A DNA stretch of 64,000 nucleotides, taken from contig DAORIV010000001.1 of the NCBI GenBank assembly GCA_035438705.1, positions 43,593-107,592 of the forward strand, given 5' to 3'. Below the pieces are notes generated by a model. That model saw only the letters and a program-made list of their open reading frames with translations, had not been told where the DNA came from and did not search any database. Source of the stretch: Parcubacteria group bacterium. Its GTDB lineage: Bacteria > Patescibacteriota > Minisyncoccia > Phycocordibacterales > DATDWN01. The first letter of the stretch is position 1, and each line of letters begins with the position of its first letter. Shown piece by piece: positions 12,764 through 53,468 of the stretch. A program made the position numbers and the translations under genes.

Positions 12764-12794
12764 CAGGTGTTGTCGGTCCGTTTTCTTTTAGGAC

Positions 12795-12823
12795 TTGATA
12801 TTAAATTCACTTTCTGCTAATGT
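12795..12823 (+). promoter_or_regulatory. promoter TTGATA-17-TAATGT upstream of rplC (followed by ~105-nt leader)
   Basis: hexamers with 17-bp spacer. Confidence 0.4.
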
Positions 12824-12933
12824 ATGCAAATCGCCTTTTGGGGCTAGTTTTGAAGGAGACTATCGATGGGCAATGTTGAGGAAAATCTTTCCTCGTTACT
12901 GTCCGAAAAATGTCTCCAAATTAAATAAATAAT

Positions 12934-28633: not shown

Positions 28634-29203
28634 ATGAAGAATTCACTAATTTGGGCAGGGGTTATCGTAGTTATACTAGGTCTATTTATTTGGAGGATGG
28701 GTCAGGATACAAATACAAGCTTAGACTCTACCTTGGAAACACAAGAAGTCAGCACAACAACTGAAAAAGTTACTAAAACTCAACCTGTTGCAACAAAACC
28801 TGCGCCAGTAACTGGGATGAAAGTATCTCTAGGAGGAATTTTTGCTGAAAAGGGTAACTATCAATGTGATTATGAGCAAGCTACTCAACAAAATAGAAGT
28901 AAACATGTCATTTATATTTCAAATGGAAAAATGCGAGCAGAGTTTAGGACTTCTGAGGGTCTAAATAGTGATAATACATTAATGGTTTATGATGGTAGAT
29001 ACTTGTATGTTTGGACAGAAGGTAAGTCAACTGGAACTATTTCAGAACCAAAAACTATAAAAGATCTTCCTTCTCTAATACCAGAGGATATAAGTAGTGG
29101 AAGAATACTTGGCTCAGGTATAAATAATGTAAGTTGGAACTGTCACGCTTGGTCACTTGATAAGAGTAAGCTTGTACCGCCATCTTACGTGAGGTTTAAC
29201 TAA
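28634..29203 (+). CDS. hypothetical membrane-anchored/secreted protein (189 aa)
   Basis: N-terminal TM/signal anchor, Thr-rich linker. Confidence 0.5.
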   Translation: MKNSLIWAGVIVVILGLFIWRMGQDTNTSLDSTLETQEVSTTTEKVTKTQPVATKPAPVTGMKVSLGGIFAEKGNYQCDYEQATQQNRSKHVIYISNGKMRAEFRTSEGLNSDNTLMVYDGRYLYVWTEGKSTGTISEPKTIKDLPSLIPEDISSGRILGSGINNVSWNCHAWSLDKSKLVPPSYVRFN

Positions 29204-29245
29204 TAATACCATAAAACCACCTCTACGGTGGTTTTATGGTATTAT
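29203..29245 (+). terminator. terminator with long stem (ATACCATAAAACCACC-TCTA-CGGTGGTTTTATGGTAT)
   Basis: core AAAACCACCTCTACGGTGGTTTTA repeats at 31587. Confidence 0.6.
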
Positions 29246-29274
29246 TAGAATATTAAAATTTAATTAATCAAAAT

Positions 29275-31581
29275 ATGAATTTTAGGATTCTCTTTTTATT
29301 TGCGTTCATACTTTTAACAACACCATTTCATGTTCAAGCTAAAGATTTGTACGTAGACCCAAATGGAAATGATGCTGTTTCTTATGCAAACAACTCAGCA
29401 TCGACTCCTTGGAGAACTATCGGTCGTGCGGCATGGGGAAGTACGAATAGAGAGGCAAGAAATGGTTCTGAGGCCGCTAGAGCAGGAGATATTGTTATAG
29501 TTAATGCTGGCACATATACAGGAGTCGGAACGAACTCTAGAAATGAAATTTTGTATTACCAAGAAAACAATGGTACAGCTGGGAATCCTATTACGTTCAG
29601 AGCAAATGGTACTGTAAATCTAACTCAGACAGGGGCGGGTGCAATGATAGGTTCATACAGAAGAAATTATATTGTATGGGATGGTTTCACAATAAATGAA
29701 GCAACTGCAGCATCTGTGGCTGATACTGGCCCTGTTACAGTGTATGAGTGTACTGGATGTGTATTGCAAAACTTAAATATAAATGGGAACGGAGATGGAA
29801 ACGGCAGAATGGACAACCACAATGGAATTAGAATTGAAGCATCAAATAATATAACTATAAAAAATAATAGAATTCAAAATGTTTACACAGATCACAATGT
29901 TTATAACGGTGCTTGTGTTATGACATACTCCAGTCAGGGTCTGACTATTGAAAACAACCATTTTTCTGAATGTGGTTCAGGTGTGTTTATAAAAGGAGGT
30001 CCGTTCGGATCTCAAATCACAAACACTTCATATATAAGATACAACCTTTTTGAAAATGTGTATGAAAATAGAGGAGGGGATCTTTCTGGCGGTTGTATAG
30101 CACTTCATGCTGGGGCACCATATTCTGCATCAGCACCAATTCTTATATATCAAAACATCATGAAAAATTGTGGTTGGGCAGGTGTGAGAATATGGGCTTT
30201 TGATAGCACTAATCCGCTAAACAATCCGACTAACGCAAAAATATTTAACAATGTAATAGATAATGCTACAAACGGTATTTGGGTTACAGGAGGCCTTTTA
30301 ACAAATGCTGGTCATCAGTTTTGGAATAACATTATTACAAATACTACTGGAGATGCTATAGCATTTGGAACAACCCCATCAGAAAATGTAAAGAGTCGTT
30401 TTGATTCTGAACACAACCTATTCTATAGCAATTCTAGTATTGCTCAAGATGCTCCAGGAACTAGATATACTTTGGCAACATGGAAAGCAACCGGCCAAGA
30501 TTCTGCTTCGCCTGAGTCTGTAAACGCAAATCCACTATTTATAGGTCCATCATCAAATAATTATAGACTTCAGTCTGGTTCACCAGCATCATCTCTGGGT
30601 AGAGCTATATATGGAATTGGTGGTGTAACTGGTGCTGTAATACCTGTTGGAGCATATATAACAGGCAGTGAGCTGATTGGAATATCTAATGGAGGCAATA
30701 TACAAAACTCTAATCCAATTACACCAGTAACACCAGCCCCGACAGCAGATATTAGGATAAATAATTCCTCAACGGGTGTAAGTGTTAATGTGGGAACTTC
30801 AGTCGTTATTTCTTGGACATCAACTAATGCTACTTCTTGTACTGTTTCACCTAGCTCATGGAGTGGAACAGCTGGGACACAAACTGTCACCCCTATTTCA
30901 AGTGCCACTTATACCATTTCTTGTTCTGGTGCGGGTGGTTCGGTAACTGATTCTGTTTCAGTGACCGTAAATCCTGTTGTTGTAGATCCGGTACCAGTTA
31001 CTCCAGTTGCAACATCTACAGAAGAGTGGGTATTTTGTTCGAATGAAAATGGAACATGTACTTTTTCTGGAACTAAGGATGTTAGATATGGAGCACAAAA
31101 TTCATATAATATAAGAACAGTAACTGGTTCAATAGGATGTAACAATGATGTTTTTGGAGACCCTATTTTAAATGTCGTAAAGCAATGTCAATATAAAAAT
31201 ATTGTCACAAATACTACACCCACAACTACAACTCCAACAACTCCGACTGCCACAACAACTACTAGTAATGATAATTTAATTAAGGTTGGAGATAGAATAA
31301 AAACAACAGCTACAATAAATGTAAGATCATCTGCTGGGGGAAGAATTGTGGGTACTCAAAGAACTGGTAGGGTAGGAAGTGTTACCACAGGACCTTCTAC
31401 AGTTAGTAGGAGGGATTGGTTTAGAGTTAATTTTGAATCAGGAGTAGATGGTTGGGTTGCGGTGGATTATATAACTAAAATTTCTACAACCACACTTTCT
31501 CAAGAAGAAATATTAAATCAAATTGCAAATCTGTTCATACTTATTAAACAACTTCAACAACAACTTAATAATCTAAGATAA
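29275..31581 (+). CDS. secreted multidomain protein: signal peptide, right-handed parallel beta-helix (pectate-lyase-like), PKD/Ig-like domain, T/P linker, SH3b-like domain, C-terminal amphipathic helix
   Basis: beta-helix repeats (NNRIQN, NNHFSE, IMKN...), WTSTNATSCTVS..YTISCSGAGGS Ig-like, WFRVNFESGVDGWV SH3b-like. Confidence 0.65.
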   Translation: MNFRILFLFAFILLTTPFHVQAKDLYVDPNGNDAVSYANNSASTPWRTIGRAAWGSTNREARNGSEAARAGDIVIVNAGTYTGVGTNSRNEILYYQENNGTAGNPITFRANGTVNLTQTGAGAMIGSYRRNYIVWDGFTINEATAASVADTGPVTVYECTGCVLQNLNINGNGDGNGRMDNHNGIRIEASNNITIKNNRIQNVYTDHNVYNGACVMTYSSQGLTIENNHFSECGSGVFIKGGPFGSQITNTSYIRYNLFENVYENRGGDLSGGCIALHAGAPYSASAPILIYQNIMKNCGWAGVRIWAFDSTNPLNNPTNAKIFNNVIDNATNGIWVTGGLLTNAGHQFWNNIITNTTGDAIAFGTTPSENVKSRFDSEHNLFYSNSSIAQDAPGTRYTLATWKATGQDSASPESVNANPLFIGPSSNNYRLQSGSPASSLGRAIYGIGGVTGAVIPVGAYITGSELIGISNGGNIQNSNPITPVTPAPTADIRINNSSTGVSVNVGTSVVISWTSTNATSCTVSPSSWSGTAGTQTVTPISSATYTISCSGAGGSVTDSVSVTVNPVVVDPVPVTPVATSTEEWVFCSNENGTCTFSGTKDVRYGAQNSYNIRTVTGSIGCNNDVFGDPILNVVKQCQYKNIVTNTTPTTTTPTTPTATTTTSNDNLIKVGDRIKTTATINVRSSAGGRIVGTQRTGRVGSVTTGPSTVSRRDWFRVNFESGVDGWVAVDYITKISTTTLSQEEILNQIANLFILIKQLQQQLNNLR

Positions 31582-31616
31582 AAAATAAAACCACCTCTAC
31601 GGTGGTTTTATTTTTG
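31581..31616. terminator. bidirectional terminator AAAACCACC-TCTA-CGGTGGTTTTATTTTT
   Basis: identical core to the 29215 terminator; flanked by convergent genes. Confidence 0.6.
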
Positions 31617-32654
31617 GATGTGTTGAGTGATGCTGTAAATTGGTGAGATTATTGATATGGAGACGAACCCGATTATAATACCTACAATTATCATCATGAT
31701 TGGCTCAATTAGACTCGAGATATTTTTGGTGAATTCATCTATTTCCTGTTCATAATTTTTTGAGACGTAAATCAAAGATTCCGAAAGATTCCCGCTTTTT
31801 TCACCAGATGAAATTAATGCTGTCATTTCGTGAGGGAATAAAAAATTATTTTTTTGAGTATAAGAAGATAGTTGTTCGCCTTTTTCTGATATAGAAAGTA
31901 ATTTCTTTAGTTCTTTTTTGTATATGATATTTTGAGTGGTCCTTTCGGTTACAAGTATGCCTTCACTAAGAGACATACCACTCTGGAGTAGAACCCCGAG
32001 AGTCCTTGTTATGTTGCTTAATATGTATTTTTTTATAACATCACCTATAACAGGTGTAGATAGTGTTTTGTAGAAAGTAAAATATCTCACTCTTTTGTTG
32101 TTTTTAAGTATATATAATAATCCCAAGATAATTAATATTGTTAAGAGTAACAATATTAACCAATTATTTAGCACAAAACTACTAGTGTAGATTAGTATTT
32201 TTGTTGATGTCGGTATCTCAATGTTCATAGTTTTAAAAACCGGGGTAATTTTGGGAAATAAGTATACTATTAGAAAAATAGTAATACACAGTGTAGATAA
32301 ACCGATAACTATTGGATAAATAAGAGAGTTTATTAATTTTTTTCTGATCAAGTTTTTCTTTGTGATTTCCTCTGTGAGATATTCAAGATTTTCACTTAAG
32401 GTTCCACTTGATTCTCCATAATCAATAATATTTATACTAAACTCATTAAATACTTTTGGAAACCTAGCAAGACTTTTTGATAATTTTTTACCATTAGATA
32501 TGTCGGTGATTAGATGATTAATAATGGTTGAATGTTTTTTAGTAGACTGTTTTTGTATAGTACTTAAACTATCTATCAAACCCAAACCAGCTTTTGTAAG
32601 AAAAGTGAGTCTTTTGAAAAAAAATATCTGGTCACTATTTTTCATATTATTCAT
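31608..32654 (-). CDS. GspF/PilC-family platform protein, short (ComGB-like)
   Basis: T2SSF-like domains, 3 TM segments, 348 aa. Confidence 0.7.
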   Translation of the reverse strand: MNNMKNSDQIFFFKRLTFLTKAGLGLIDSLSTIQKQSTKKHSTIINHLITDISNGKKLSKSLARFPKVFNEFSINIIDYGESSGTLSENLEYLTEEITKKNLIRKKLINSLIYPIVIGLSTLCITIFLIVYLFPKITPVFKTMNIEIPTSTKILIYTSSFVLNNWLILLLLTILIILGLLYILKNNKRVRYFTFYKTLSTPVIGDVIKKYILSNITRTLGVLLQSGMSLSEGILVTERTTQNIIYKKELKKLLSISEKGEQLSSYTQKNNFLFPHEMTALISSGEKSGNLSESLIYVSKNYEQEIDEFTKNISSLIEPIMMIIVGIIIGFVSISIISPIYSITQHIQK

Positions 32655-33867
32655 TTGTTACTCTGAGTATTTCATCTATGGTTGTGACTCCATTCATAAC
32701 TTTTTCCAGCCCATCCATTAGTAGTGTTTTTGTATTGTTTCCTAAAGCAATTTTTTTCAATTCATTTAAACTTTTTTTATCATGAATTGCTTCTCTAATT
32801 TTATCGTCAATTATTAGTATTTCGTTAATTGAAATTCTTCCAGAGTATCCGCTCATACCACATCTTTTGCAACCCTCACCACGATATAAATTTATTACAT
32901 CTTCTGTCCTGTGGGATTTAATGAATTTTTTGTCTATATCGTTAGGTTTATATGTTGATTTACAGTATGTACATATTTTCCTAACCAATCTTTGTCCAAT
33001 TACAAGACTTAGTGTGGATGAAATTAAATACTCTTCAACACCCATATCAATTAGTCTGGGTATTGTGCCTATGGCATCATTTGTATGAATGGTCGATAAG
33101 AGTAGATGTCCTGTGAGAGCCGTATTTACTGCAATTCCAGCTGTTTCTTTGTCTCTTATTTCTCCAACCATTATAATATTGGGGTCTTGGCGCAAAATAC
33201 TCCTAAGTCCGTTTGCAAAACCAAGTCCATTTTTAGTATTAACTTGTATTTGTTCTACATCATCTATTGCATATTCAATAGGGTCTTCTATGGTCACAAT
33301 TGAAACATCAGGGGAATTAAGTAAATTTATTAAAGAATATAAGGTTGTAGTTTTTCCGGAACCTGTTGGTCCAGTAGCTAGTACCATGCCGTGAGGTTTT
33401 TTAAGGCATCTTATAATTTTTTCTTGATCACTATCACTAAAACCTAATTGTTTTAGCGTCACTTTTTGATTGTCCGTTGATAAAAGTCTCATTACTACAT
33501 TTTCTCCATAGTATGTTGGTACCATAGAAACTCTAATATCAACAAAATTATCTGGCTCAACAATAGAATATCTAAAACGTCCATCTTGTGCAGTTTGATG
33601 TTCATCAGTGCGTAGTTTACAGAGAACTTTAATTCTGGAAATTATTTCTTCATGAGTTTTCTTTGGGAGAAAAAATGGTTTTTGTAAAACCCCATCAATT
33701 CTAAATCTTACTTTTACAGTATCTGAGTTTGGGTCAATGTGGATATCTGAGACCTTATTTTTAATTGCTTTTTCAATTAGGTATTCAATTAGGTTTATGA
33801 TAGAAATATCTAGGTTTTCTTCAATTTCCTTTTCTAGTTGAGCCTGTTTTTCCTCAATGTTGGGCAT
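32647..33867 (-). CDS. GspE/PilB-family secretion ATPase, short form lacking N-terminal domain (ComGA-like)
   Basis: Walker A ATGPTGSGKTTTLYS, Asp box, Walker B, C-terminal CxxC pairs; 406 aa. Confidence 0.8.
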   Translation of the reverse strand: MPNIEEKQAQLEKEIEENLDISIINLIEYLIEKAIKNKVSDIHIDPNSDTVKVRFRIDGVLQKPFFLPKKTHEEIISRIKVLCKLRTDEHQTAQDGRFRYSIVEPDNFVDIRVSMVPTYYGENVVMRLLSTDNQKVTLKQLGFSDSDQEKIIRCLKKPHGMVLATGPTGSGKTTTLYSLINLLNSPDVSIVTIEDPIEYAIDDVEQIQVNTKNGLGFANGLRSILRQDPNIIMVGEIRDKETAGIAVNTALTGHLLLSTIHTNDAIGTIPRLIDMGVEEYLISSTLSLVIGQRLVRKICTYCKSTYKPNDIDKKFIKSHRTEDVINLYRGEGCKRCGMSGYSGRISINEILIIDDKIREAIHDKKSLNELKKIALGNNTKTLLMDGLEKVMNGVTTIDEILRVTNE

Positions 33868-33942: not shown

Positions 33943-36900
33943 ATGAAAAAAGTATATTTTATTGTATTTATATTGGGAGCATTATTGTTTAATAATTCAG
34001 TTTATTCTGCAACTGCGACATTTCAACACGGGGTCAATGGTTATACGGGTGGAGAGGACTTAGAAATAAGTAGTGATAACCCAAATACCAATTATATTTC
34101 AGGAGGAAGTAATTATTCTGATAGAAGTGGACTGCGTTTCTGTGGTTCGAAGTGTAATAAAATACTCTTACGTTTTAATTCTCTTGGAATAACGGGCAAC
34201 ATAACAAATGTTAGGCTCGAACTAAAAGAAAGTGGAAGACAAGGTGGGGCAAGTAATATATATGCATATAAAATATCTAAAAATGACTGGGTAAATAGTC
34301 AAACTACTTGGAATACATATAAGACTGGAAGCAATTGGGCATCTGCAGGAGGTGATATAGGTTCAGTATTATCTACAATATCTGCACCTGGGACAAACAA
34401 TTGGGCTAGTTTTGATCTCGGTGCAAACTGGACTATTACAGAATTACAACAAAATGGTATATTAATTGATACTGATATACCCGGATGGAATTATGTCTGG
34501 TTTTATACGAATGAGGCAAGTAATGTAACTGATAGACCAAAACTTATTGTTACCTATGATGGAACAACTCCCACAACCCCAACAACTCCAGCTCCAACTG
34601 TTACAATTTCTGCTTCACCTACATCTATAACTTCAGGTGGAAGTTCAACACTAACTTGGTCTTCAACAAATGCGACATCTTGTACTGCAAGTGGTTCATG
34701 GACTGGAAGTAGAGGAACTTCAGGAACACAATCAACTGGAACACTTACAACAAACTCAACTTTTACACTTTCATGTAGTGGAGCTGGGGGCACAACGAAT
34801 CAGTCTGTCACAGTAATTATCAATTCAACAACACCAGTAACACCAACATCTGGAGGATTAGAAATAGATCTTTCTTATGTAAATCAAAGTTCTCCAGAGT
34901 TTATAAGATTTAAGTCTGTAGTAGATGCTGCGTTAGCTGGAAATCCTGATTATGGTTTTTCAGGCGAACATGCTGCTCTTATGTATAAAATTACTGGTGA
35001 TGTAAGGTATGCTGATTATGCCATCGGTTTTATTGAGAATTGCCAAAATTCAAGATACGCAGGTGCTAATTGTGGAGTACAAGGTGCTGAAGCTTTAATT
35101 TCTAATGGAAACAGACCTCCAGTTGCTGGGGATTCGTATCTTGAAGTTGGTGATATTATAGGTTCTCTTGCACTTGTATATGATTGGGCTGGGTCTAGAA
35201 TGACACAATCTCAGAAAACAAGATGGGCTAATTATGCAAACCAGACAATTTATAATGTTTGGAATCCGAATCAAGCTTCATGGGGAGGAGTATCTCATCC
35301 CTGGACAGGATGGTCTATAAATAATCCTGGAAATAACTATTATTACAGTTTCGTTCAAGCGACAATGTACTGGGCTCTTGCAACAAATGATACAACACTA
35401 CTTTCTTTTGTTAGAAATCAAAAATTACAACCTTTGGTAAATTATTTCAATCAAATCCCAGGTGGAGGAAGTCTTGAAGGAACTGGTTACGGAACTGCTC
35501 ATATGAGAATGTTTCATCTGTATCAGGTCTGGAAAGATTCAACAGGAGAGGATCTTGCAAATGCGAATAGCCACTTAACAGATAGTATAAGACTTTGGTT
35601 ACATCAAACAACACCAAATAGAGCTTATTATGCACCAATAGGAGATTTATCTAGAAGTTCTTTCCCAGATCTATTTGATTATCATAGAAGACTTGTGCTT
35701 GAAGCTCGTAATCTAACAAATAATAACTCTGCAAAAGATACTGCTTCATGGTGGTTAAATAATATTTCTGTGACACAAATGTCTAGACGTATTGATTCTC
35801 AATATGATTTATTACCGAAAGGAATAAATACTAGTGTTGCGCCAAATGAACCTCTGTCATATAGAGCAAGCGGGATAGGTAGAGTATTTGCTAGAACAGG
35901 TTGGGATACAAATGCATTATGGATGTCATTTGCTGCAGGAAAATATAATGAAAGTCACGCACATCAAGATCAAGGATCGTTTACTTTAGCAAACAATGCA
36001 TGGCTTGCTGTTACAAATAATATTTATACGAATAGTGGAATTGAGCAGTCAACCGATTACCACAATATTATCAGATTTGTTCAAAATGGATCAGTAGTCC
36101 CACAAAGAGAGGGTACTGAATCTGTGATGACAGTAAATCAACTTGGAACAAATGGTGAAGTAGATGTAACTGGAAATATCACTCCAGCTTATGGAGGAAG
36201 TTCAGCTGTCCAAAGTTGGGTTAGAAATATTAGATTTTCTGGAAGGAAACTCACAGTTAATGATGGCTTTTCTGTGGCAGCAGGGACTCAAGCAATATTT
36301 CAAATTCATGTACCTGTTCAACCTGTCGTGAGTGGAAACACAATAACAGCAGGTAATTTAAGAGTAAGAGTCCTTGTTCCAGCATCTCCTACGATAACAG
36401 TAGTAAATCAAGGTAGGTATAGAATTGATATAAGTGGTGGAACAAATCAATATGTTGTCGAACTTTCGGATCAAGCAATTACTGGTACGACGATAATACC
36501 AGCACCCCCAGTTTCAGGTAGTCCAACAACTCCCACAACCCCAACAACTCCAGCTCCAACTGTTACAATTTCTGCTTCACCTACATCTATAACTTCAGGT
36601 GGAAGTTCAACACTAACTTGGTCTTCAACAAATGCGACATCTTGTACTGCAAGTGGTTCATGGACTGGAAGTAGAGGAACTTCAGGAACATTGTCTGTAA
36701 CCCCCACAACAACATCAACATATACATTGTCTTGTACAGGCATAGGCGGAAGTATAAATCAATCTACTACAGTTACAGTGAATACTGTGATTCCGACAAC
36801 ACCAGCATCAACACTATTTACATCAGGTCAAAGAGTTCAAACAACAGCCAACCTAAATGTTAGAGCAACTGCTTCATCAAACGGAACACTACTAGGCACG

Positions 36901-38799
36901 CAAAGCACTAGTGCATTAGGAACAATCACAGGAACATCAGTATATGCAAACAGTATAAACTGGTGGAATGTTAACTATGATACTGGAGTAGATGGGTGGT
37001 CATCAGAGCAATTCTTGCAAAATTATGTTGCGCCTACTACTCCAACAACACCTACTGCTCCGACACAACCGACAACACCAAGTGGCACAGGTAGTACTTT
37101 CTACCCTCCAATAAATACTAGTGACACATCAGATGCTCCTCTAATTAACTTTGCTGAAACATGGGCAAGAAACTGGAACTTTGGTGGACACAGTGTAACT
37201 ACTACAAACTGGAGTGGTTGGTGGGATTACAGTGATACTTCTTACGAGCCTTGGTTGTTCGATAGAGCATCAGTTGGTTACTATTTATACAAGAGAACAA
37301 ATGATTCTAAATGGTTAGATAAGTTTATGTCTGACTTTGCTTGGTACAGAGCAAGAATAGATGCAAATGGATTCTTTACACCTACATCCTATGACGATAA
37401 CAAATATGCTTACGTTAGACCATTTCTTTTATATGAAAGACAAACAGGTGACAATCAATATAGAAGTCAAGCACTAAATATTTATAATATGTGGCTTAGA
37501 GAATTTTCTAACACATATAGTACTTCTATTGGACTTTGGACTGAAAGAGAAATTGGTTTAGCTCTTGAAGTTGCTGTAGATTATTACGATCTTACAGGAA
37601 GTCAGGCAGCGCTTACTCGTGCGAATGCACTTGTTACTCAGTGGTCAGTTATGTCGGCAAATAATGGAGGTGCACCACTTCACACTGTAACTCAACATGA
37701 AGGTGGTGGGGGATCTCAAATGATTACTAGTCCGTGGATGAGTGCACTTTATTTTCAAGCTGCATATAAACTTTATGCATTAACCGGTAATACAGAAGTG
37801 TTACAACAAATAAGTAGATATGCTGATTGGATGGAGCAATATGGTTACTTCTCTGGAAATACAGTGGGGGTTTCAAGTGTTCCTACTGCAGCATATTATT
37901 TAGCTGGCCCAAACGGTCCTTACACTGCCGAGACACCTAGTACAGGAGATTTTTCTCACTGTTTAGATATCTCAAATATGATTAAGTTCGCAGTGGTTGC
38001 AAAACAAGCTCTTGGAGAGTCAACTACAGCAGTTGCAAACAGACAAGCACAATTAAAAACATGCGCAGCATATTATTTTGCTGACGCAACAAGAACTACA
38101 ACAAGTCTTCCAAGATACAGAGTAAATCCGGCCAGATCATTTAACTGGTGGGTGCGTTCAACAGTTGAGTACAGAACATCTGGAACAAACTCAACTCCAA
38201 TACCTACTCCAACAGTAACACCAACAATACCACCCACCACAACAACTCCAACTACACCTACATCAGGAGGAGCAGGTGGTGGAAGTTCAGCACCAAGTAC
38301 ACCATCTACACCAGTAACACCTACAACACCGAGTGCAGGGTCAGGAGCTGGGGTAGGTGGAGGAGGCGGAGTGCAAACTCCTAGCTTACCAAGTACAGGT
38401 GGCGGAGGAACATCTTCCACACCTAAACCAGTTATCACTCGCAATTTGTCACCAGGAACAAAGGGAACTGATGTAACACAATTACAAAACTTCCTAATCT
38501 CTACAGGATATCTAGCATCAGGACTAAACACAGGATACTATGGTAATGCTACCAAAGAAGCTGTACAGAAGTATCAATGTGCCACACTTAAACTATGTTC
38601 AGGAACACAAACAACTAATGGTTACGGAGTAGTAGGAACAAAGACAAGAACAGCACTAACTACAACAAACACTCCTGTGCAAACCATAACCTCTACACTT
38701 ACTGCAGAACAAAGAGTTGCAATACAGAAACAGATTAGTGATTTACTTGTAGTTGTCGCACAACTTATGGAGCAACTAAAAGCAATGCAGGGGAACTAG
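33943..38799 (+). CDS. giant (1618 aa) secreted multidomain protein: signal peptide, two near-identical PKD/Ig-like modules, heparinase II/III-like polysaccharide-lyase region, SH3b-like domain, second alpha/alpha-toroid-like region, T/P/G-rich linkers, C-terminal peptidoglycan-binding domain and amphipathic helix
   Basis: ESHAHQDQGSFTL (heparinase II/III-like H-x-H-x-D-x-GSF), PG_binding_1-like LSPGTKGTDVTQLQNFLISTGYL...TKEAVQKYQ, repeated Ig-like WSSTNATSCTASGSW modules. Confidence 0.7.
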   Translation: MKKVYFIVFILGALLFNNSVYSATATFQHGVNGYTGGEDLEISSDNPNTNYISGGSNYSDRSGLRFCGSKCNKILLRFNSLGITGNITNVRLELKESGRQGGASNIYAYKISKNDWVNSQTTWNTYKTGSNWASAGGDIGSVLSTISAPGTNNWASFDLGANWTITELQQNGILIDTDIPGWNYVWFYTNEASNVTDRPKLIVTYDGTTPTTPTTPAPTVTISASPTSITSGGSSTLTWSSTNATSCTASGSWTGSRGTSGTQSTGTLTTNSTFTLSCSGAGGTTNQSVTVIINSTTPVTPTSGGLEIDLSYVNQSSPEFIRFKSVVDAALAGNPDYGFSGEHAALMYKITGDVRYADYAIGFIENCQNSRYAGANCGVQGAEALISNGNRPPVAGDSYLEVGDIIGSLALVYDWAGSRMTQSQKTRWANYANQTIYNVWNPNQASWGGVSHPWTGWSINNPGNNYYYSFVQATMYWALATNDTTLLSFVRNQKLQPLVNYFNQIPGGGSLEGTGYGTAHMRMFHLYQVWKDSTGEDLANANSHLTDSIRLWLHQTTPNRAYYAPIGDLSRSSFPDLFDYHRRLVLEARNLTNNNSAKDTASWWLNNISVTQMSRRIDSQYDLLPKGINTSVAPNEPLSYRASGIGRVFARTGWDTNALWMSFAAGKYNESHAHQDQGSFTLANNAWLAVTNNIYTNSGIEQSTDYHNIIRFVQNGSVVPQREGTESVMTVNQLGTNGEVDVTGNITPAYGGSSAVQSWVRNIRFSGRKLTVNDGFSVAAGTQAIFQIHVPVQPVVSGNTITAGNLRVRVLVPASPTITVVNQGRYRIDISGGTNQYVVELSDQAITGTTIIPAPPVSGSPTTPTTPTTPAPTVTISASPTSITSGGSSTLTWSSTNATSCTASGSWTGSRGTSGTLSVTPTTTSTYTLSCTGIGGSINQSTTVTVNTVIPTTPASTLFTSGQRVQTTANLNVRATASSNGTLLGTQSTSALGTITGTSVYANSINWWNVNYDTGVDGWSSEQFLQNYVAPTTPTTPTAPTQPTTPSGTGSTFYPPINTSDTSDAPLINFAETWARNWNFGGHSVTTTNWSGWWDYSDTSYEPWLFDRASVGYYLYKRTNDSKWLDKFMSDFAWYRARIDANGFFTPTSYDDNKYAYVRPFLLYERQTGDNQYRSQALNIYNMWLREFSNTYSTSIGLWTEREIGLALEVAVDYYDLTGSQAALTRANALVTQWSVMSANNGGAPLHTVTQHEGGGGSQMITSPWMSALYFQAAYKLYALTGNTEVLQQISRYADWMEQYGYFSGNTVGVSSVPTAAYYLAGPNGPYTAETPSTGDFSHCLDISNMIKFAVVAKQALGESTTAVANRQAQLKTCAAYYFADATRTTTSLPRYRVNPARSFNWWVRSTVEYRTSGTNSTPIPTPTVTPTIPPTTTTPTTPTSGGAGGGSSAPSTPSTPVTPTTPSAGSGAGVGGGGGVQTPSLPSTGGGGTSSTPKPVITRNLSPGTKGTDVTQLQNFLISTGYLASGLNTGYYGNATKEAVQKYQCATLKLCSGTQTTNGYGVVGTKTRTALTTTNTPVQTITSTLTAEQRVAIQKQISDLLVVVAQLMEQLKAMQGN
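34565..34730 (+). repeat. intragenic direct repeat copy 1 (~166 bp, PKD/Ig-like module)
   Basis: apparently identical to 36526..36691 (by reading, and by identical antisense ORF translations). Confidence 0.85.
36526..36691 (+). repeat. intragenic direct repeat copy 2 (~166 bp)
   Basis: apparently identical to 34565..34730. Confidence 0.85.
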
Positions 38800-43968: not shown

Positions 43969-44055
43969 GGATAGGTGGATGAGTGGTTTAAATCAACGGT
44001 TTACTAAACCGTCGTAGGGTAAAACCTACCGAGAGTTCGAATCTCTCCCTATCCG
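43969..44055 (+). tRNA. class II tRNA (Ser-like, long variable arm) with anticodon loop UUACUAA, apparent anticodon ACU
   Basis: acceptor GGATAGG/CCTATCC, D-stem GAT/ATC, anticodon stem ACGGT/ACCGT, variable arm GTAGG..CCTAC, T-arm GAGAGTTCGAATCTCTC, discriminator G. Confidence 0.6.
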
Positions 44056-44058
44056 CAT

Positions 44059-44779: not shown

Positions 44780-45907
44780 ATGGCAAATTTCCTATCTCAA
44801 ATAACAGATTTATTTGCAAAGAAAAGTGGAAGTGTCTTAGGCATCGACATAGGTTCATCTTCTATAAAAGTAGTGCAAATAAGTAGAAAAAATGGTCATG
44901 CTATTTTAGAAACATACGGGGAACTTGCTCTCGGACCTTACACTGGGAAGGGGGTTGGGGAGTCTGTAGCTCTACCTCAAGAAAAAGTAATTGAAGCAGT
45001 TAAGGATATGCTTAAAGAAAAAGAGGTAAATATTACGACTATGTCTTGTGGAGTTGCCATACCTTTTGCATCAAGTTTGATGGCGGTAATTGAAATGCCA
45101 GATGTATCGAGGAAAGAATTGGAGCAAATGATTCCTATTGAAGCTAGAAAGTATGTTCCGGTGCCAATATCTGAGGTTACATTAGATTGGTATGTGATAC
45201 CAAAAGATAAAAATGCTGAACCTCTTGTTCCTGCGGACCCAAATGCTCCTAAACCAAAATCAACCATTGAAGTATTAATTGTTGCATTGCACAACGACAC
45301 TATAAATAAATACAAAAATATTGTAACAAATACTGGTTTAGATGTTGGATTTTTTGAGATTGAAATATTCAGTACTATGCGTTCTGTTTTGGATGATGAA
45401 ACTAAACCGGTTTTAGTTGTTGATATGGGAGCATCTAGCACAAAGTTATATATGGTTGAAAGGGGGATACTTAGAGCATCACATATGGTTGAAAGAGGTT
45501 CATATGACATAACAGATGAGTTGTCAAAATCACTTGGTATTTCTCTTACTGATGCAGAATATTTGAAAAGAGAAAAGGGTTTGATAGGAGAAACAAATGG
45601 AATTGCTTTAAAAAATGTTGCTTCCTTTACATTAAACTATATTTTTACAGAAGCAGATCGCTTTATACTTACTTATCAAAAAAAATACAATAAGGATGTC
45701 AGTAAGGTGATTCTTGTGGGGGGTGGTAGTGCATTAAAAGGTGTGGTTCCGTTTGCAAAAGAAATACTTGAAACAGAAGTTTTGGCAGGAGATCCTTTTT
45801 CAAAAGTGGTAGCACCTGCATTTCTAGAACAAGTTCTTAAAGAGACAGGTCCTGAGTTCGCTGTGGCAGTTGGAGTGGCTCTTCGAAAGTTGCAAGAAGT
45901 ACGTTAG
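44780..45907 (+). CDS. pilM: type IV pilus assembly protein PilM (actin-like ATPase fold)
   Basis: GIDIGSSSIKVVQ N-terminus, 375 aa, first gene of pilMNO set. Confidence 0.8.
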   Translation: MANFLSQITDLFAKKSGSVLGIDIGSSSIKVVQISRKNGHAILETYGELALGPYTGKGVGESVALPQEKVIEAVKDMLKEKEVNITTMSCGVAIPFASSLMAVIEMPDVSRKELEQMIPIEARKYVPVPISEVTLDWYVIPKDKNAEPLVPADPNAPKPKSTIEVLIVALHNDTINKYKNIVTNTGLDVGFFEIEIFSTMRSVLDDETKPVLVVDMGASSTKLYMVERGILRASHMVERGSYDITDELSKSLGISLTDAEYLKREKGLIGETNGIALKNVASFTLNYIFTEADRFILTYQKKYNKDVSKVILVGGGSALKGVVPFAKEILETEVLAGDPFSKVVAPAFLEQVLKETGPEFAVAVGVALRKLQEVR

Positions 45908-45962
45908 TTTGACTATTGCAAAATCAAGTATAAAATTTAATAAGATTTTTGGGAGGACTATT

Positions 45963-46145
45963 ATGCCTGAAGTCCAGTCATGTGATTGTAGGCAGGTAGG
46001 AAACGACGAAATGTTTGACCTCGGTCAGTCCTCAAGGGAACTGAGGAGTGTAAAATCCACAAGAAGGGGAATTCTGGTTTGTTTTTTTGTAGTATTTCTT
46101 ATTGCTTTTGGGATTATAACAAAAAGAATTCCCGTTCCTTTCTAA
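45963..46145 (+). CDS. hypothetical ~60-aa tail-anchored protein in GC-richer insert between pilM and pilN (could instead be an sRNA)
   Basis: ATG at 45963 within ORF 45870; C-terminal TM; followed by a strong terminator. Confidence 0.25.
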   Translation: MPEVQSCDCRQVGNDEMFDLGQSSRELRSVKSTRRGILVCFFVVFLIAFGIITKRIPVPF

Positions 46146-46148
46146 GTT

Positions 46149-46199
46149 AGCTCTGCACAAAATATTCGTAAGTATTTTGTGCAGAGCTTTCTGTTTTTA
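46149..46199 (+). terminator. strong terminator (17-bp stem AGCTCTGCACAAAATAT/ATATTTTGTGCAGAGCT + T-run)
   Basis: long perfect inverted repeat then TTTCTGTTTTT. Confidence 0.65.
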
Positions 46200-46253
46200 T
46201 ACACAGTTAATATAGTTTTTTGGGATAGCATATACTATAATTACGTATATATT

Positions 46254-46862
46254 ATGGAACCAAAGTTTCAAACTTCTTTTATTCCGAAAAAAATTGCAGA
46301 AGATGATTCTAGAAATAGAGTTAGCATCTCTGCTGAAACAAATATTTTTACACTTGCCGCCACAGTTGTATTTGTGGTCATTTCACTTCTCTATGGGGGA
46401 TTATTCTTTTATAAAGGGGTAATCATAAAACAAGTAGAAAAAGCTAGACAAGATTTGATAAGTGCTAGTGATGCCATACAGCCGGATAAAATTCAAGAAA
46501 TAATTGATAACAATACTAGAATAAATAATTCCTTGGAAATTTTAGATAAACACTTAGCAACATCTAGATTGATGATGTTTTTAAGTGATTCCACGATAAA
46601 AAAATTAAAATTTAATGAGTTTCTATATCAAAACAAAGATGGTGTTGCGTCTGTAATTATAGACAGTGAGGTTCAGACATACAATGCTTTTGCATATCAA
46701 CAAGAAGTTTTGGCTAAAAGTGAATATGTTAAAAATCCTACATTTACTGACATATCACTCTCTGATGATGGAAATGTTAAGTTTAAGTTTTCTGGAAGAA
46801 TAGAGCAAAGTCTTGTTTCTTACAAAAAAGCTCTTGAGTCAACAATAACAATAAACCAATAA
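46254..46862 (+). CDS. pilN: PilN-like pilus assembly protein
   Basis: N-terminal TM then coiled/periplasmic domain; ATG at 46254. Confidence 0.6.
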   Translation: MEPKFQTSFIPKKIAEDDSRNRVSISAETNIFTLAATVVFVVISLLYGGLFFYKGVIIKQVEKARQDLISASDAIQPDKIQEIIDNNTRINNSLEILDKHLATSRLMMFLSDSTIKKLKFNEFLYQNKDGVASVIIDSEVQTYNAFAYQQEVLAKSEYVKNPTFTDISLSDDGNVKFKFSGRIEQSLVSYKKALESTITINQ

Positions 46863-46863
46863 A

Positions 46864-47418
46864 ATGAAATCTTTATTATCGATACTAGTTATAGCAGTTT
46901 CAGTTGGAGTATATTTTGTATATATCAAACCACTTACTTTGGATATTAGAGTACAGATGGCAAAGAAACAGGAAATTGAAAAAGTGTTGAATAGAGTTAA
47001 AGAGATTAAAGAGAAAAGAGATTCTATATTGGATGAGTACAATGCAATTAGCGTTGAAGATATAGAAAAACTTAATAAAATCATTCCTGAAACCATTAAT
47101 TCAGTTGAAATATTTAATGATCTGGCTTCTGCAGGTGCCGGATACGGTTTAACTGTGCAGGAGTATAAGGCCGATGAAGATAATTCAAACCAAAACTCTG
47201 TTTCAGAAACAGTATCTGATCTTCCGTATAAAAAAACTAAACTCACGATTAAATTTACAGGACCATATTCTCAGTTTGTTGGATTTTTAGAAAAAATTGA
47301 GTCAAGTTTAAGAATAATAGATATAAATTCATTGAGTATAAAACAGGGGTCATCTTCTGATAGGGGTCCTGTTACCCTTGATTATGTGTTGGAAGCAAAC
47401 GTTTATTCTTTAAGATAA
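46864..47418 (+). CDS. pilO: PilO-like pilus assembly protein
   Basis: N-terminal TM, coiled-coil, 184 aa, position after pilN. Confidence 0.6.
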   Translation: MKSLLSILVIAVSVGVYFVYIKPLTLDIRVQMAKKQEIEKVLNRVKEIKEKRDSILDEYNAISVEDIEKLNKIIPETINSVEIFNDLASAGAGYGLTVQEYKADEDNSNQNSVSETVSDLPYKKTKLTIKFTGPYSQFVGFLEKIESSLRIIDINSLSIKQGSSSDRGPVTLDYVLEANVYSLR

Positions 47419-47422
47419 AAAT

Positions 47423-47746
47423 ATGAATGTAACACCCGCAATACAAAAATTAATTGTTACCATAGTGATATTAGTAGGTTTGGGTTATTTACTTTTCAAT
47501 ACTTTGACAAGTGATATTCCAGTGGATGACACTATGGTTGCAACTAAAGCTGAAGGGGAGGAGATACTTATATTGGCAGATAAACTCGATGCAGTTAACA
47601 TTAATGACTCTATTTTTTCATCACCACTTTTTACAAGCTTGGTTGATATTTCTGTTCCAGTTGTAGAAGAACCAAAAGGTAGACCAAATCCATTTTCACA
47701 AATAGGTAATGATACTGTTTCTACAGGACCAGGTGGAGTACGTTAA
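47423..47746 (+). CDS. hypothetical pilus assembly protein (PilP-position)
   Basis: N-terminal TM, 107 aa, within pil operon. Confidence 0.4.
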   Translation: MNVTPAIQKLIVTIVILVGLGYLLFNTLTSDIPVDDTMVATKAEGEEILILADKLDAVNINDSIFSSPLFTSLVDISVPVVEEPKGRPNPFSQIGNDTVSTGPGGVR

Positions 47747-47760
47747 TAACACAGCAAAAT

Positions 47761-49485: not shown

Positions 49486-49508
49486 TTAAATTACTTTATA
49501 CTCAAGTT

Positions 49509-49901
49509 ATGGAAGCTGATAAAAAAAATTTAAAAATACTACTTGTTGATGATGATCGTTTTCTGTTGGATATGTATATTTTGAAATTTAAGAAATCAGG
49601 TCTAGATATTGATACTGCATCAAATGGTGCTGCAGCATTAGAAAAAATAAAATCTGGGGTAGAGTATGACATAGTGCTTTCTGACATAATTATGCCAAGC
49701 ATGGATGGACTAGAGCTTTTAAAGACCATGAGAACGGAAAAAATACTTCCAAATGCAACTGTCATAATGCTAACAAATCAAGCAGATGATTATGATAAAG
49801 CAAAGGCTTTGGGAGTTGATGGTTATATTATAAAAGCCACAACAATCCCATCTGAAGTTGTAGAAAAAGTATTAACCATTTATAAAAATAAGAAAAAATA
49901 A
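49509..49901 (+). CDS. stand-alone response-regulator receiver (CheY-like) protein
   Basis: LLVDDD...D(S)D..MP..DG REC motifs, 130 aa. Confidence 0.8.
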   Translation: MEADKKNLKILLVDDDRFLLDMYILKFKKSGLDIDTASNGAAALEKIKSGVEYDIVLSDIIMPSMDGLELLKTMRTEKILPNATVIMLTNQADDYDKAKALGVDGYIIKATTIPSEVVEKVLTIYKNKKK

Positions 49902-49903
49902 AA

Positions 49904-50971: not shown

Positions 50972-50988
50972 AATAAGAATACTTAAAT

Positions 50989-52197: not shown

Positions 52198-52398
52198 AAC
52201 TTCCAAATCTGGCGAACTTCTTGTTTCGAGTTTGTAAATTTTCGTCAACGTATATCTAATACGTTTTCTCAGATTTATAAACTCTCAACATCGAATTTCA
52301 TTCAGATTTGAAAGTTTTACTTAAAAATTGGAATTATGTGTTGGGAAGATAAATCAGATTATGAAAGTTTTATCAAATTAAGATATAATTATCTGAAT

Positions 52399-52839
52399 AT
52401 GAATCATAAAAAAGGTTTTACCATAATTGAGTTACTTATGGTTATCGCAATAATAGGTTTACTTTCTACAATCGTGCTTACTTCATTAAGTGGTGCTAGA
52501 AATAGAGGTAGTGATGCTGCTGTAAAAAGCAACTTAAACAGTATACGTTCTGCTGCAGATCTATTTTATGATAACAATGGCACTTCTTATGGAACATTTG
52601 CAATTGGTAATTGCGTTTCAGGTTCTGGAATGTTCGGCAATTCAACAATAATTTCTGCTATCAATGCAGCTATTTCTGCAGGTGACGGCACCTCGAGGTG
52701 TGTATCTTCTGGAACAGCATATGCTGTGGCTGTAGGCATGAAAACCATAGGTCAGTCATGGTGCATAGATAGTTTGGGTAGATCTAAGCTGTATCTTGGT
52801 AATCCAGTTTCAGCTATTTCTGGGTCTAGCTGTAATTAG
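52399..52839 (+). CDS. type IV pilin (major pilin paralog 1)
   Basis: class III signal KKGF|TIIELLMVIAIIG with Glu+5; C-terminal Cys pair (WCIDS...SSCN). Confidence 0.85.
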   Translation: MNHKKGFTIIELLMVIAIIGLLSTIVLTSLSGARNRGSDAAVKSNLNSIRSAADLFYDNNGTSYGTFAIGNCVSGSGMFGNSTIISAINAAISAGDGTSRCVSSGTAYAVAVGMKTIGQSWCIDSLGRSKLYLGNPVSAISGSSCN

Positions 52840-53446: not shown

Positions 53447-53468
53447 TATTTATCTTATATAAGTTATC

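What the first reader, a model, noticed from the sequence alone, without database searches (positions are those of the whole stretch)
29275..31581. Secreted beta-helix / PKD / SH3b surface protein
The 768-aa protein has a signal peptide, a pectate-lyase-like parallel beta-helix with repeated N-rich turns, an Ig/PKD-like module, a Thr-Pro linker, an SH3b-like domain and a terminal amphipathic helix. For a reduced-genome organism this is a big investment in an extracellular polysaccharide-acting enzyme, and it is plausibly directed at a host or partner cell envelope.
Basis: partly seen in the sequence, partly recalled or inferred. Interest (0 to 1): 0.5.

Follow-up and report, generated by a model that had tools for sequence, protein, structure and literature searches.

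The report
Secreted modular beta-helix glycan-cleaving enzyme
A tiny-genome (Parcubacteria/CPR) bacterium encodes a real, exported 768-residue protein whose beta-helix domain belongs to a large uncharacterised enzyme family normally found inside exopolysaccharide gene clusters of other bacteria; here it is fused to binding modules and a coiled-coil tail, so it most likely cuts another cell's surface sugar polymer, though this is not a surprising kind of protein.

Summary
ORF 29275..31581 (+) encodes a 768-aa protein with these parts:
- a Sec-type signal peptide
- a right-handed parallel beta-helix (AlphaFold pLDDT 94.5) with an Asn ladder
- an Ig-like module
- a Thr/Pro linker
- an SH3b-like barrel
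- a C-terminal heptad helix

Across 134 diverse representatives, the only strictly conserved candidate catalytic side chains are Tyr218 and Lys240, stacked on the PB1 face. No carboxylate is strict. This favours a lyase-type depolymerase over a hydrolase. The window protein keeps all family-conserved residues.

Its helix domain is 58% identical to a homologue from a 63%-GC EPS locus, but only 36-41% identical to other CPR copies, which suggests horizontal capture.

In four CPR loci, helix-tailed enzymes flank a PilB2/PilC2-like pair. Eighty other such loci lack them.

Verdict: a plausible host-glycan depolymerase. Substrate and chemistry are untested. Interest is moderate.

The parts
29275..29340 (+). 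Sec-type signal peptide, res 1-22 (MNFRILFLFAFILLTTPFHVQA, predicted cleavage before K23)
   Evidence: Read directly from the sequence. A22 and K23 are >=90% conserved at the start of the mature family domain. The model shows a helix at res 3-15. No signal-peptide predictor was run.
29341..30684 (+). Right-handed parallel beta-helix domain, res 23-470. It has an N-terminal cap (PWRTIGRAAWGS, AGDxVxVxAGTY), about 10 coils with an Asn ladder, and a C-terminal cap (NYRLQSGSPA...GAYITGSE).
29926..29994 (+). Codons for Tyr218 (29926-29928) through Lys240 (29992-29994): the putative catalytic dyad on stacked PB1 positions of consecutive coils.
   Evidence: Y218 is conserved in 133/134 and K240 in 134/134 diverse 50%-cluster representatives. 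No Asp or Glu in the central helix exceeds 95%. K240 aligns with the catalytic nucleophile position of GH120 XylC (D382) and lies one coil before Pel9A K273.
30739..30975 (+). Ig-like beta-sandwich module, res 489-567, with two conserved Cys (C522, C550).
   Evidence: AF2 pLDDT >90. Foldseek hits the PKD domain of 1l0q and titin Ig domains. The same module is repeated in the neighbouring 1618-aa protein (38-49% id) and in P0121, P0127, P0130 and P0134. There is no Pfam PKD hit.
31003..31218 (+). Small 4-Cys beta module, res 577-648 (W.FC..E.G.C.F.G...VRYG......G.I.C.N..FGDP.....K.C.Y). Likely a carbohydrate-binding module.
   Evidence: AF2 pLDDT ~95. Homologous copies occur singly or in tandem in proteins carrying SGNH, GH16 or DUF1349 domains (P0122-P0125, P0133). 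No Pfam family matches.
31219..31290 (+). Thr/Pro-rich flexible linker, res 649-672.
   Evidence: Read from the sequence. AF2 pLDDT is <50 for model res 186-197.
31291..31482 (+). SH3b-like beta-barrel, res 673-736.
   Evidence: AF2 pLDDT ~93. Pfam SH3_3 is weak (E 0.068, 13.8 bits, below the cut-off of 27). Identity is 36-39% to proteins with PF08239 hits (P0128, P0132). Foldseek hits the SH3b-bearing 2evr.
31501..31581 (+). C-terminal heptad-repeat helix, res 743-768 (QEEILNQIANLFILIKQLQQQLNNLR), plus the stop codon.
   Evidence: The AF2 model shows a helix at model res 274-298. Seven of 8 a/d positions are hydrophobic, and N/Q/K residues make a membrane span unlikely. The same tail ends seven large secreted CPR proteins.
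31608..33867 (-). Context: a T2SSF (31608-32654) and T2SSE (32647-33867) pair. These are paralogues of the main PilC/PilB of the window.
   Evidence: Pfam T2SSF E 4e-47 and T2SSE E 4e-125. Identity to the window's PilB is 42% and to PilC 26%. The orthologous pair lies next to helix-tailed enzymes in L014, L020 and L039 but not in 80 other loci.
33943..38799 (+). Context: a 1618-aa secreted protein that shares the Ig-like module, an SH3b-like module and the C-terminal heptad helix with the target.
   Evidence: blastp finds the shared modules. Weak hits to heparinase HepB, GH127, Disaggr_repeat and SH3_3, and a PG_binding_1 hit at E 1e-7. The helix-tail HMM gives E 8e-22.

Best explanation
The gene encodes an exported, modular polysaccharide depolymerase.

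Proposed steps:
1. After Sec export and signal-peptide cleavage, the N-terminal right-handed beta-helix binds a linear, probably acidic, glycan along its PB1 groove.
2. It cleaves the glycan, most likely by beta-elimination. Invariant Lys240 would act as Bronsted base and the stacked invariant Tyr218 as proton donor. Asn181, Asn211 and Arg186 would position or neutralise the uronate.
3. The Ig-like spacer, the 4-Cys CBM-like module and the SH3b-like barrel hold the enzyme on a glycan or peptidoglycan surface.
4. The C-terminal heptad helix oligomerises it or docks it to a partner on the cell surface.

The catalytic domain comes from a family that other phyla use as a periplasmic or secreted processing enzyme inside their own exopolysaccharide loci. 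This reduced genome has no such locus nearby, so the likely substrate is the capsule or EPS of a host or neighbouring cell.

Shown: the fold, family membership, the conservation pattern, the genomic contexts and the module folds.

Inferred: catalysis, lyase chemistry, the substrate, and the role of the tail.

For: Family. There are 1,097 clusters at E<=1e-30, mostly ~460-500 aa single-domain proteins with signal peptides.

Conservation. In 134 diverse representatives, K240 is 134/134 and Y218 133/134. D150 is 117/132, D180 107/134 and E188 105/134. By the coil register from DSSP, Y218 and K240 occupy the same outward PB1 position on consecutive coils. K240 aligns with a catalytic position of GH120 XylC. 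In the closest sequence-related solved structure, 9rx2, the same position is Arg. A Lys base is the proposed catalytic base in RbmB (K227A abolishes activity) and is reported for Pel9A (PMC12993940, PMC10992409). The window protein keeps all family-conserved residues.

Context. Non-CPR homologues lie among GT4/GT2 glycosyltransferases, Wzx, AsnB-type amidotransferases, carbamoyl- and acyl-transferases, PEP-CTERM proteins and PrsK/PrsR regulators.

No EPS genes in the window. The neighbours are ribosomal/IF3 genes, T2SSE/F, malic enzyme, a Mur ligase and a T4P locus.

Horizontal origin. Identity is 58% to P0004 (63%-GC EPS locus) against 36-41% to other CPR beta-helix domains.

Binding modules. 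They fold confidently.
Against: No activity or substrate is known for any member of this family. No solved structure of a member has a published function (9rx2 has no paper).

There is no strictly conserved Ca2+ site or Arg neutraliser as in PL1, PL6 and PL9. R186 is only 115/134.

The placement of K240 and Y218 in the groove therefore rests on DSSP plus repeat register and on low-confidence profile alignments (Prob 83-93% only with relaxed settings; default settings aligned only the N-terminal cap).

Lys and Tyr could instead be ligand-binding residues.

The host-directed role is circumstantial. The enzyme could trim the organism's own surface glycan.
Confidence: 0.5

Rival explanations
1. 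It is a glycoside hydrolase rather than a lyase. Two groove carboxylates (for example D150/D180 or D180/E188) would act as acid and base. Lys240, Arg186 and Tyr218 would only bind an anionic substrate, as the RIK-motif Lys does in GH28.
Against: No carboxylate in the central helix is strictly conserved: 11-22% of representatives replace D150, D180 or E188 with N, G, T or Q. The GH28 catalytic Asp positions align to G212 and G234/S235. The GH120 D382/E405 positions align to K240/A276.
Confidence: 0.25
2. The beta-helix is a non-catalytic adhesin or scaffold, like PfbA, pertactin-type passengers or NosD. The whole protein would then be a surface adhesin that binds host glycans.
Against: Stand-alone ~480-aa homologues without any binding module are conserved components of EPS biosynthesis loci. 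A Lys/Tyr pair is invariant across >130 diverged clusters, which is more typical of an active site than of an adhesin surface. The top fold matches are enzymes.
Confidence: 0.12
3. It modifies rather than cleaves a polymer, for example as a uronate C5-epimerase of the AlgG/AlgE type. That chemistry uses the same proton-abstraction step. The family motif D180-N181-H/Y182 resembles the epimerase DPH(D/E) motif (the motif is recalled from memory, not checked here).
Against: D180 is only 107/134 and position 182 is H in 104/134. The motif resemblance was not tested by alignment to an epimerase. An epimerase would be of little use to a cell that does not make the polymer. Fusion to binding modules is typical of depolymerases.
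Confidence: 0.08
4. It acts on the bacterium's own envelope, in cell-wall or surface-glycan remodelling (for example to let pili through), rather than on a host.
For: SH3b and PG_binding modules usually bind peptidoglycan. The gene lies beside a pilus-type ATPase/platform pair in four CPR loci. A Mur ligase gene is nearby.
Against: The catalytic family is linked to secreted EPS, not to peptidoglycan. No glycan-synthesis genes were found in the 64-kb window, though the rest of the genome was not seen.
Confidence: 0.15

Closest known systems
PL9 pectate lyase Pel9A (PDB 1ru4) and rhamnogalacturonan lyase BT4170 (5olq)
   Different: Sequence identity is only 14-18%. In the coil-by-coil register read from the sequences (my inference), the Ca2+-binding D209/D233/D234/D237 correspond to N211..Y218 and S235-G236..K240. 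hhalign places base K273 at H278 or A276, which are not conserved in the family. The family's own invariant Lys lies one coil earlier. Default hhalign aligns only the cap. The window protein has no Pfam Pel9A-like hit.
Vibrio cholerae RbmB, the VPS exopolysaccharide lyase (PDB 9ozd; PMC12993940, PMC11637428)
   Different: No sequence-level relationship was detected: it is absent from the PDB profile hits. RbmB pairs Lys with Glu253, whereas this family pairs Lys with Tyr. RbmB has no Ig, CBM, SH3b or coiled-coil modules. The residue correspondence could not be computed.
Pantoea stewartii WceF, a tailspike-like beta-helix EPS-modifying enzyme (PMC7949094)
   Same: It is a beta-helix enzyme encoded in a Wzx/Wzy-type EPS biosynthesis cluster, and it trims the cell's own polymer. 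This is the same genomic logic as the non-CPR homologues.
NosD / CASH-domain (PbH1 repeat) proteins
   Different: Scores are far below the curated cut-offs (19 bits against 300). There is no nos operon context. NosD is an ABC-transporter partner in N2O reductase maturation.
PDB 9rx2 'parallel beta-helix repeat protein' (717 aa, function unpublished)
   Same: It is the closest solved structure by sequence: profile E 6e-14 over the C-terminal half, including the GxGI(F/Y)(L/I)(K/R) strand and the C-terminal cap.
   Different: It has Arg in place of Lys240. Only half of the domain aligns. No paper was found.

Membership tests
Pectin-lyase-like right-handed beta-helix superfamily (CASH/PbH1 repeats) | Three-sheet right-handed parallel beta-helix with stacked coils | tested here: met
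Pectin-lyase-like right-handed beta-helix superfamily (CASH/PbH1 repeats) | Asn ladder / PbH1-type repeat signature | tested here: met
   N228, N257, N294, N326 and N352 are invariant at the same repeat position. Homologues hit PF13229 at E down to 3e-25.
CAZy PL9 (Pel9A-type pectate lyases) | Ca2+-binding aspartates D209, D233, D234, D237 (PMC10992409 names D209, D233 and D237; D234 is from memory) | tested here: not met
   Coil-by-coil mapping, read by me from the sequences and anchored on both caps that hhalign aligns, puts N211-G-A-C-V-M-T-Y218 and G234-S-G-V-F-I-K240 at these positions. No acidic cluster is present.
CAZy PL9 (Pel9A-type pectate lyases) | Catalytic base Lys273 in the GNGFKLGG strand | tested here: not met
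   hhalign places K273 opposite H278 (neighbour A276). H278 is conserved in only 32/134 representatives. The alignment confidence in this stretch is low.
CAZy PL9 (Pel9A-type pectate lyases) | Significant sequence match to the family model | tested here: not met
   The window protein has no Pfam hit. Default hhalign gives Prob 12.8% and covers the cap only. Some relatives have precomputed 'weak' PF22842 hits.
CAZy GH28 (polygalacturonases) | Catalytic Asp of the NTD and DD motifs | tested here: not met
   The profile alignment to 3jur puts G212 opposite the NND Asp and G234/S235 opposite the DD pair. Only the following IK(S)G Lys matches K240.
CAZy GH120 (XylC-type beta-xylosidases) | Nucleophile D382 and acid/base E405 (residue roles are from memory of the XylC literature) | tested here: not met
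   The profile alignment to 3vst puts K240 opposite D382 and A276 opposite E405.
PKD domain (PF00801/PF18911) | Sequence match to the PKD model | tested here: not met
   There is no Pfam hit at E<=1. The fold is Ig-like and resembles the PKD domain of 1l0q only at Foldseek E 6e-4.
Bacterial SH3 (SH3b, PF08239) | Sequence match above the gathering score | tested here: inconclusive
   The score is 13.8 bits against a cut-off of 27 (E 0.068). Against that: 36-39% identity to proteins with PF08239 hits, a confident small beta-barrel, and a Foldseek hit to the SH3b-bearing 2evr with prob 1.0.
Sec-exported protein (type I signal peptide) | n-h-c regions with an AxA-like cleavage site and no lipobox | tested here: met
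   Read from the sequence: R4, the hydrophobic run L6-T15, V20-Q-A22|K. There is no Cys near the site. No SignalP-type tool was available.
Colanic-acid WcaM family | Detectable homology to E. coli WcaM | tested here: not met
   hhalign of A1 against WcaM (b2043) gives Prob 1.6%.
Polysaccharide lyase (any family) | Beta-elimination products from a uronic-acid polymer | not testable with these tools
   This needs enzyme assays. Only the invariant Lys/Tyr pattern speaks for it.

The most novel reading that the evidence does not exclude
In one Parcubacteria-type lineage, the C-terminal heptad helix may be a sorting or docking tag. It would attach horizontally captured glycan-degrading domains to the cell surface next to a T4P-2-like (PilB2/PilC2) host-tethering pilus. 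The captured domains include EPS-locus beta-helix enzymes with a previously undescribed Lys/Tyr active site, and a heparinase-II/III-like enzyme. The slot beside the pilB2/pilC2 pair would be a swap site where different depolymerases are exchanged to match different host capsules. The beta-helix family itself would be a new polysaccharide-lyase family.
Probability: 0.15. Interest if true: 0.7.

Novelty: new variant of a known kind. Interest (0 to 1): 0.4.

Why it matters
If the chemistry is confirmed, a family of more than 1,000 sequence clusters would gain a function. The family is a routine but unnamed component of exosortase- and Wzx-type exopolysaccharide loci, and it would probably gain a new CAZy family number.

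For CPR biology, it would give a concrete and testable candidate for how an epibiont gets through a host's capsule or biofilm matrix. It would also be an example of a reduced genome repeatedly capturing enzyme domains from EPS-producing bacteria and re-tooling them with lineage-specific surface modules.

In itself, a secreted modular beta-helix carbohydrate-active protein is a familiar kind of thing.

Tried and rejected
- Direct phmmer of the protein against PDB sequences gave nothing useful.
- Pfam and NCBIfam on the whole protein gave only sub-threshold SH3_3 and NosD hits.
It was replaced by a scan of 10 members.
- The second beta-helix of the Thioalkalivibrio locus was tried as a bridge to Pel9A. 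It hit PL6 chains weakly, not 1ru4.
- Default hhalign against Pel9A aligned only the cap. Relaxed and global settings were needed, and the middle of that alignment is unreliable.
- WcaM is not a relative (Prob 1.6%).
- Literature searches for 9rx2, for PEP-CTERM plus beta-helix, and for 'parallel beta-helix repeat protein' structures found nothing.
- A database search with the helix-tail alignment returned only two short fragments, so the spread of the tail beyond seven proteins is unknown.
- I tested whether the T2SSE/F pair is generally coupled to helix-tailed or beta-helix proteins. In 80 metagenome loci (0.92 Mb) with T2SSE at 45-63% identity, none had either. General coupling is rejected, and only a lineage-restricted link remains.
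- Composition shows no foreign-DNA signature. The beta-helix part has GC 0.386 against 0.353 for the window, so any transfer is old.
- Promoter and terminator scans are at background level.
Full report

Yes. The ORF listing gives one ATG-initiated ORF at 29275..31581 on the + strand, 768 aa. The identical protein is in public collections as 'right-handed parallel beta-helix repeat-containing protein [Parcubacteria group bacterium]'. It recurs on six contigs from different samples with the same neighbours. More than 300 homologues were found, many with E<1e-100.

The window has 35% GC. It carries ribosomal-protein, IF3, SecY and type IV pilus genes, as expected of a reduced CPR genome.

**2. 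Anatomy**

*Signal peptide.* Residues 1-22 (MNFRILFLFAFILLTTPFHVQA) look like a Sec signal peptide with a VQA|K site. A22 and K23 are >=90% conserved at the start of the family domain.

*Beta-helix.* An AlphaFold2 model of res 1-482, built on 108 homologues, has pLDDT 94.5 and pTM 0.93. It consists of about ten beta-helix coils.

*C-terminal region.* A second model (res 470-768, pLDDT 87.6) resolves these parts:
- an Ig-like sandwich (res 489-567)
- a compact beta module with four conserved cysteines (res 577-648)
- a disordered Thr/Pro linker (res 649-672)
- an SH3-like barrel (res 673-736)
- a 25-residue terminal helix (res 743-767), with 7 of 8 a/d heptad positions hydrophobic

The helix contains N, Q and K throughout, so it is a coiled-coil-type helix and not a membrane anchor.

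*Module assignments.*
- The Ig module has no PKD sequence signature, but it resembles PKD and titin Ig folds.
- The SH3b assignment is sub-threshold in Pfam (E 0.068). It is backed by 36-39% identity to PF08239-positive proteins and by a fold hit to 2evr.
It has no Pfam family. It recurs, often in tandem, in proteins that carry SGNH, GH16 or DUF1349 domains. That is the behaviour of a carbohydrate-binding module.

**3. What is the beta-helix?**

*Curated sequence models.* Only generic models are touched. Beta_helix and NosD hit the homologues. The window protein itself gets nothing above threshold.

*Family size and spread.* A profile of the domain finds 1,097 50%-identity clusters at E<=1e-30. 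Nearly all are single-domain proteins of 460-500 aa. Hosts include Nitrospira, Acidobacteriota, Planctomycetota, Myxococcota, Bdellovibrionota, Beta- and Gammaproteobacteria, Elusimicrobia and a few CPR.

**4. Membership tests for known catalytic families**

I recovered the Pel9A sequence and verified it as identical to chain 1ru4_A.

*PL9.* Default hhalign aligns only the N-terminal cap. With relaxed or global settings the two families align end to end (Prob 83-93%), because both caps are homologous.

I then counted coils between the fixed points GIRIE/GLEIN and GCIALH/NGFKL. This count is my own reading of the sequences, not an hhalign result; in this stretch hhalign's own alignment skips a coil and is unreliable. 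By that count, the PL9 Ca2+ ligands D209 and D233/D234/D237 (PMC10992409) correspond to N211..Y218 and S235-G236..K240. hhalign places the PL9 base K273 opposite H278. That residue is conserved in only 32 of 134 representatives. The PL9 machinery is therefore absent.

*GH28.* In the profile alignment to 3jur, the NTD and DD aspartates fall on G212 and G234/S235.

*GH120.* In the alignment to XylC, the nucleophile D382 falls on K240 and the acid/base E405 on A276.

*WcaM.* The beta-helix protein of the colanic-acid locus is unrelated (Prob 1.6%).

The domain is thus a member of the pectin-lyase-like superfamily, but of none of the catalytic families I could test.

**5. The family's own signature**

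I examined 134 diverse representatives. Within the central helix, the only side chains conserved at >=95% are:
- the Asn ladder
- N181 and N211, a second ladder at the T3/PB1 junction
- Tyr218 (133/134)
- Lys240 (134/134)

The groove carboxylates are less conserved:

| Residue | Conserved in |
|---|---|
| E142 | 112/132 |
| D150 | 117/132 |
| D180 | 107/134 |
| E188 | 105/134 |

From the DSSP strands and the repeat register, Y218 and K240 occupy the same outward-facing position at the end of PB1 on consecutive coils. They are flanked by E188 on the coil before. PB1 with its T3 loops is the canonical substrate groove of this superfamily. K240 coincides with a catalytic position in GH120. The closest solved sequence relative (9rx2) has Arg there.

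A strictly conserved Lys/Tyr pair, with no strictly conserved carboxylate, points to proton abstraction and donation (beta-elimination, or epimerisation) rather than hydrolysis. A Lys base is the proposed catalytic base in RbmB, where K227A abolishes activity, and is reported for Pel9A (PMC12993940, PMC10992409). The window protein keeps every one of these residues.

**6. Genomic context**

*Outside CPR.* All five stand-alone homologues I looked up lie inside exopolysaccharide loci:
- Thioalkalivibrio Tgr7_2354
- a homologue on a 1.1-Mb contig
- two soil contigs
- a Nitrospira MAG

Their neighbours include GT4/GT2 glycosyltransferases, Wzx, AsnB-type amidotransferases, carbamoyltransferase-SxtJ-DUF5989 sets, GDSL/SGNH and acyltransferase-3 genes, LMW phosphatase, PEP-CTERM proteins, PrsK/PrsR, and often a paralogous second beta-helix. 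Six more genome loci show the same partners.

The analogy is to RbmB in the Vibrio VPS cluster and to WceF in the stewartan cluster (PMC12993940, PMC7949094): enzymes that trim the cell's own polymer.

*In the CPR window.* No polysaccharide-synthesis genes lie within the 64 kb.

*Horizontal origin.* The helix domain is 58% identical to P0004, which comes from a 63%-GC EPS locus. It is only 36-41% identical to the beta-helix domains of other CPR proteins (P0003, P0114, L020). Of the 120 best homologues, 105 have GC-rich-type amino-acid composition. This argues for horizontal capture, probably more than once. The capture was followed by fusion to CPR-type modules. Nucleotide composition is already ameliorated.

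**7. The tail and the neighbouring pilus-type genes**

*The tail.* The same C-terminal heptad helix (consensus L-S/T-x-E-E/Q...I..QI..L-hydrophobic x3-x-QL..QL...) ends seven large secreted CPR proteins:
- the target
- the 1618-aa neighbour at 33943..38799
- P0002
- a 1111-aa LamG/Big protein in the same locus as P0002
- P0003
- P0114
- an 840-aa protein in MAG contig L020

*Adjacency to T2SSE/T2SSF.* Six of the seven lie within a few kb of a short T2SSE/T2SSF pair. That pair is orthologous between these loci (60-92% identity). It is a paralogue of the main PilB/PilC of the window (42% and 26%).

In L039 the arrangement is T2SSF-T2SSE | tailed enzyme | malic enzyme, the same as in the window. 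There, however, the enzyme is a beta-helix protein instead of the heparinase-like 1618-aa protein. In the close relative L014 (T2SSE 92% identical) a different beta-helix subtype sits in the slot.

*A wider test.* Eighty metagenome loci (0.92 Mb) with T2SSE at 45-63% identity contain no beta-helix of this family and no tail. They usually carry pilins and ~510-550-aa proteins downstream, like the pilins and the faint-LVIVD 512-aa protein in L014. In Saccharibacteria, a second non-retractile pilus system, T4P-2, mediates host tethering (PMC12206443).

The link between tailed enzymes and this pair is therefore real but lineage-restricted. I treat a functional coupling as a low-probability, higher-interest reading.

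**8. Verdict**

The most likely mechanism is a Sec-exported, surface-retained polysaccharide depolymerase. It would use a Lys240/Tyr218 dyad on the PB1 groove and act on a foreign (host or neighbour) acidic exopolysaccharide. My rough weights for the chemistry:

| Reading | Weight |
|---|---|
| Lyase | ~0.45-0.5 |
| Hydrolase | ~0.25 |
| Non-catalytic binder | ~0.1 |
| Epimerase-type modifier | <0.1 |

Whether the target is a host polymer or the cell's own envelope is a separate question; I give the own-envelope reading about 0.15.

It is a modular variant within a well-known kind of protein. It belongs to a large family whose chemistry has never been assigned. That is useful to know, but not startling.

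Noticed in passing
window 33943-38799 (+): A 1618-aa secreted protein shares the Ig-like module (twice), an SH3b-like module and the C-terminal heptad helix with the target. It has weak hits to heparin/heparan-sulfate lyase HepB (res 635-698), the GH127 catalytic domain, Disaggr_repeat and SH3_3, and a PG_binding_1 hit at E 1e-7. This is a second large glycan-active exoprotein, divergent from the T2SSE gene.
   Followed up: partly
window 31608-33867 (-); L014 2820-5217; L020 9338-11645; L039 1-2128: A short T2SSE/T2SSF pair, paralogous to the main PilB/PilC, is flanked by helix-tailed secreted enzymes in four CPR loci. The enzyme in the slot differs even between close relatives (L014 against L039, T2SSE 92% identical). 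Eighty other loci with related T2SSE/F lack such enzymes.
   Followed up: yes
window 31501-31578 and 38701-38796; P0002, P0003, P0114 C-termini; L014 ~12770-12898; L020 ~7385-7499: A conserved C-terminal heptad-repeat helix (…QI..L[LIV]3.QL..QL…, often ending QGN) acts as a common tail on seven large secreted CPR proteins with unrelated catalytic domains. No curated model covers it. A database search with it returned only two fragments.
   Followed up: partly
window 31003-31218 (res 577-648 of the target): A ~60-residue 4-Cys beta module (W.xC..EGGxCxFxGT..VRYGA.G......TGSIxCNNxxFGDPxxGxxKxCxY) has no Pfam family. It is found in tandem copies in proteins with SGNH, GH16 or DUF1349 domains (P0122-P0125, P0133). 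It is probably an undescribed carbohydrate-binding module.
   Followed up: partly
window 29200-29248: A perfect 22-bp hairpin (dG -32.6 kcal/mol, z -10) starts at the stop codon of the upstream 189-aa ORF and ends 26 nt before the target's ATG. It has no clear U-tract, and no obvious Shine-Dalgarno lies before the ATG. It may be a terminator or a regulatory structure.
   Followed up: partly
window 28634-29203 (+): A 189-aa ORF lies just upstream on the same strand. It has an N-terminal membrane/signal segment, a Thr-rich linker and a Cys-containing domain. It has no Pfam hit. It is conserved as the neighbour in all contigs that carry the target.
   Followed up: no
window 44780-55419: A complete type IV pilus locus: PilM, PilO, PilB with an MshEN domain, a PilT-like ATPase, PilC, N_methyl pilins and the prepilin peptidase PilD.
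   Followed up: partly
window 60784-62208 (+): A 474-aa protein is built of repeated SH3b/GW-like modules. It shares 27-31% identity with the target's SH3b region.
   Followed up: no
window 43969-44056 (+): ARAGORN calls a tRNA-Ser with anticodon ACT. An unmodified A34 is unusual for bacterial tRNAs other than tRNA-Arg(ACG). This could be a miscall or an oddity.
   Followed up: no
L006, L007, L013, L017 (non-CPR EPS loci): There is a recurrent neighbourhood around stand-alone family members: a paralogous second beta-helix, a GDSL/SGNH hydrolase, an acyltransferase-3/SGNH fusion, and a carbamoyltransferase-SxtJ-DUF5989 trio. This suggests that the family processes an O-carbamoylated or O-acylated exopolysaccharide.
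   Followed up: partly
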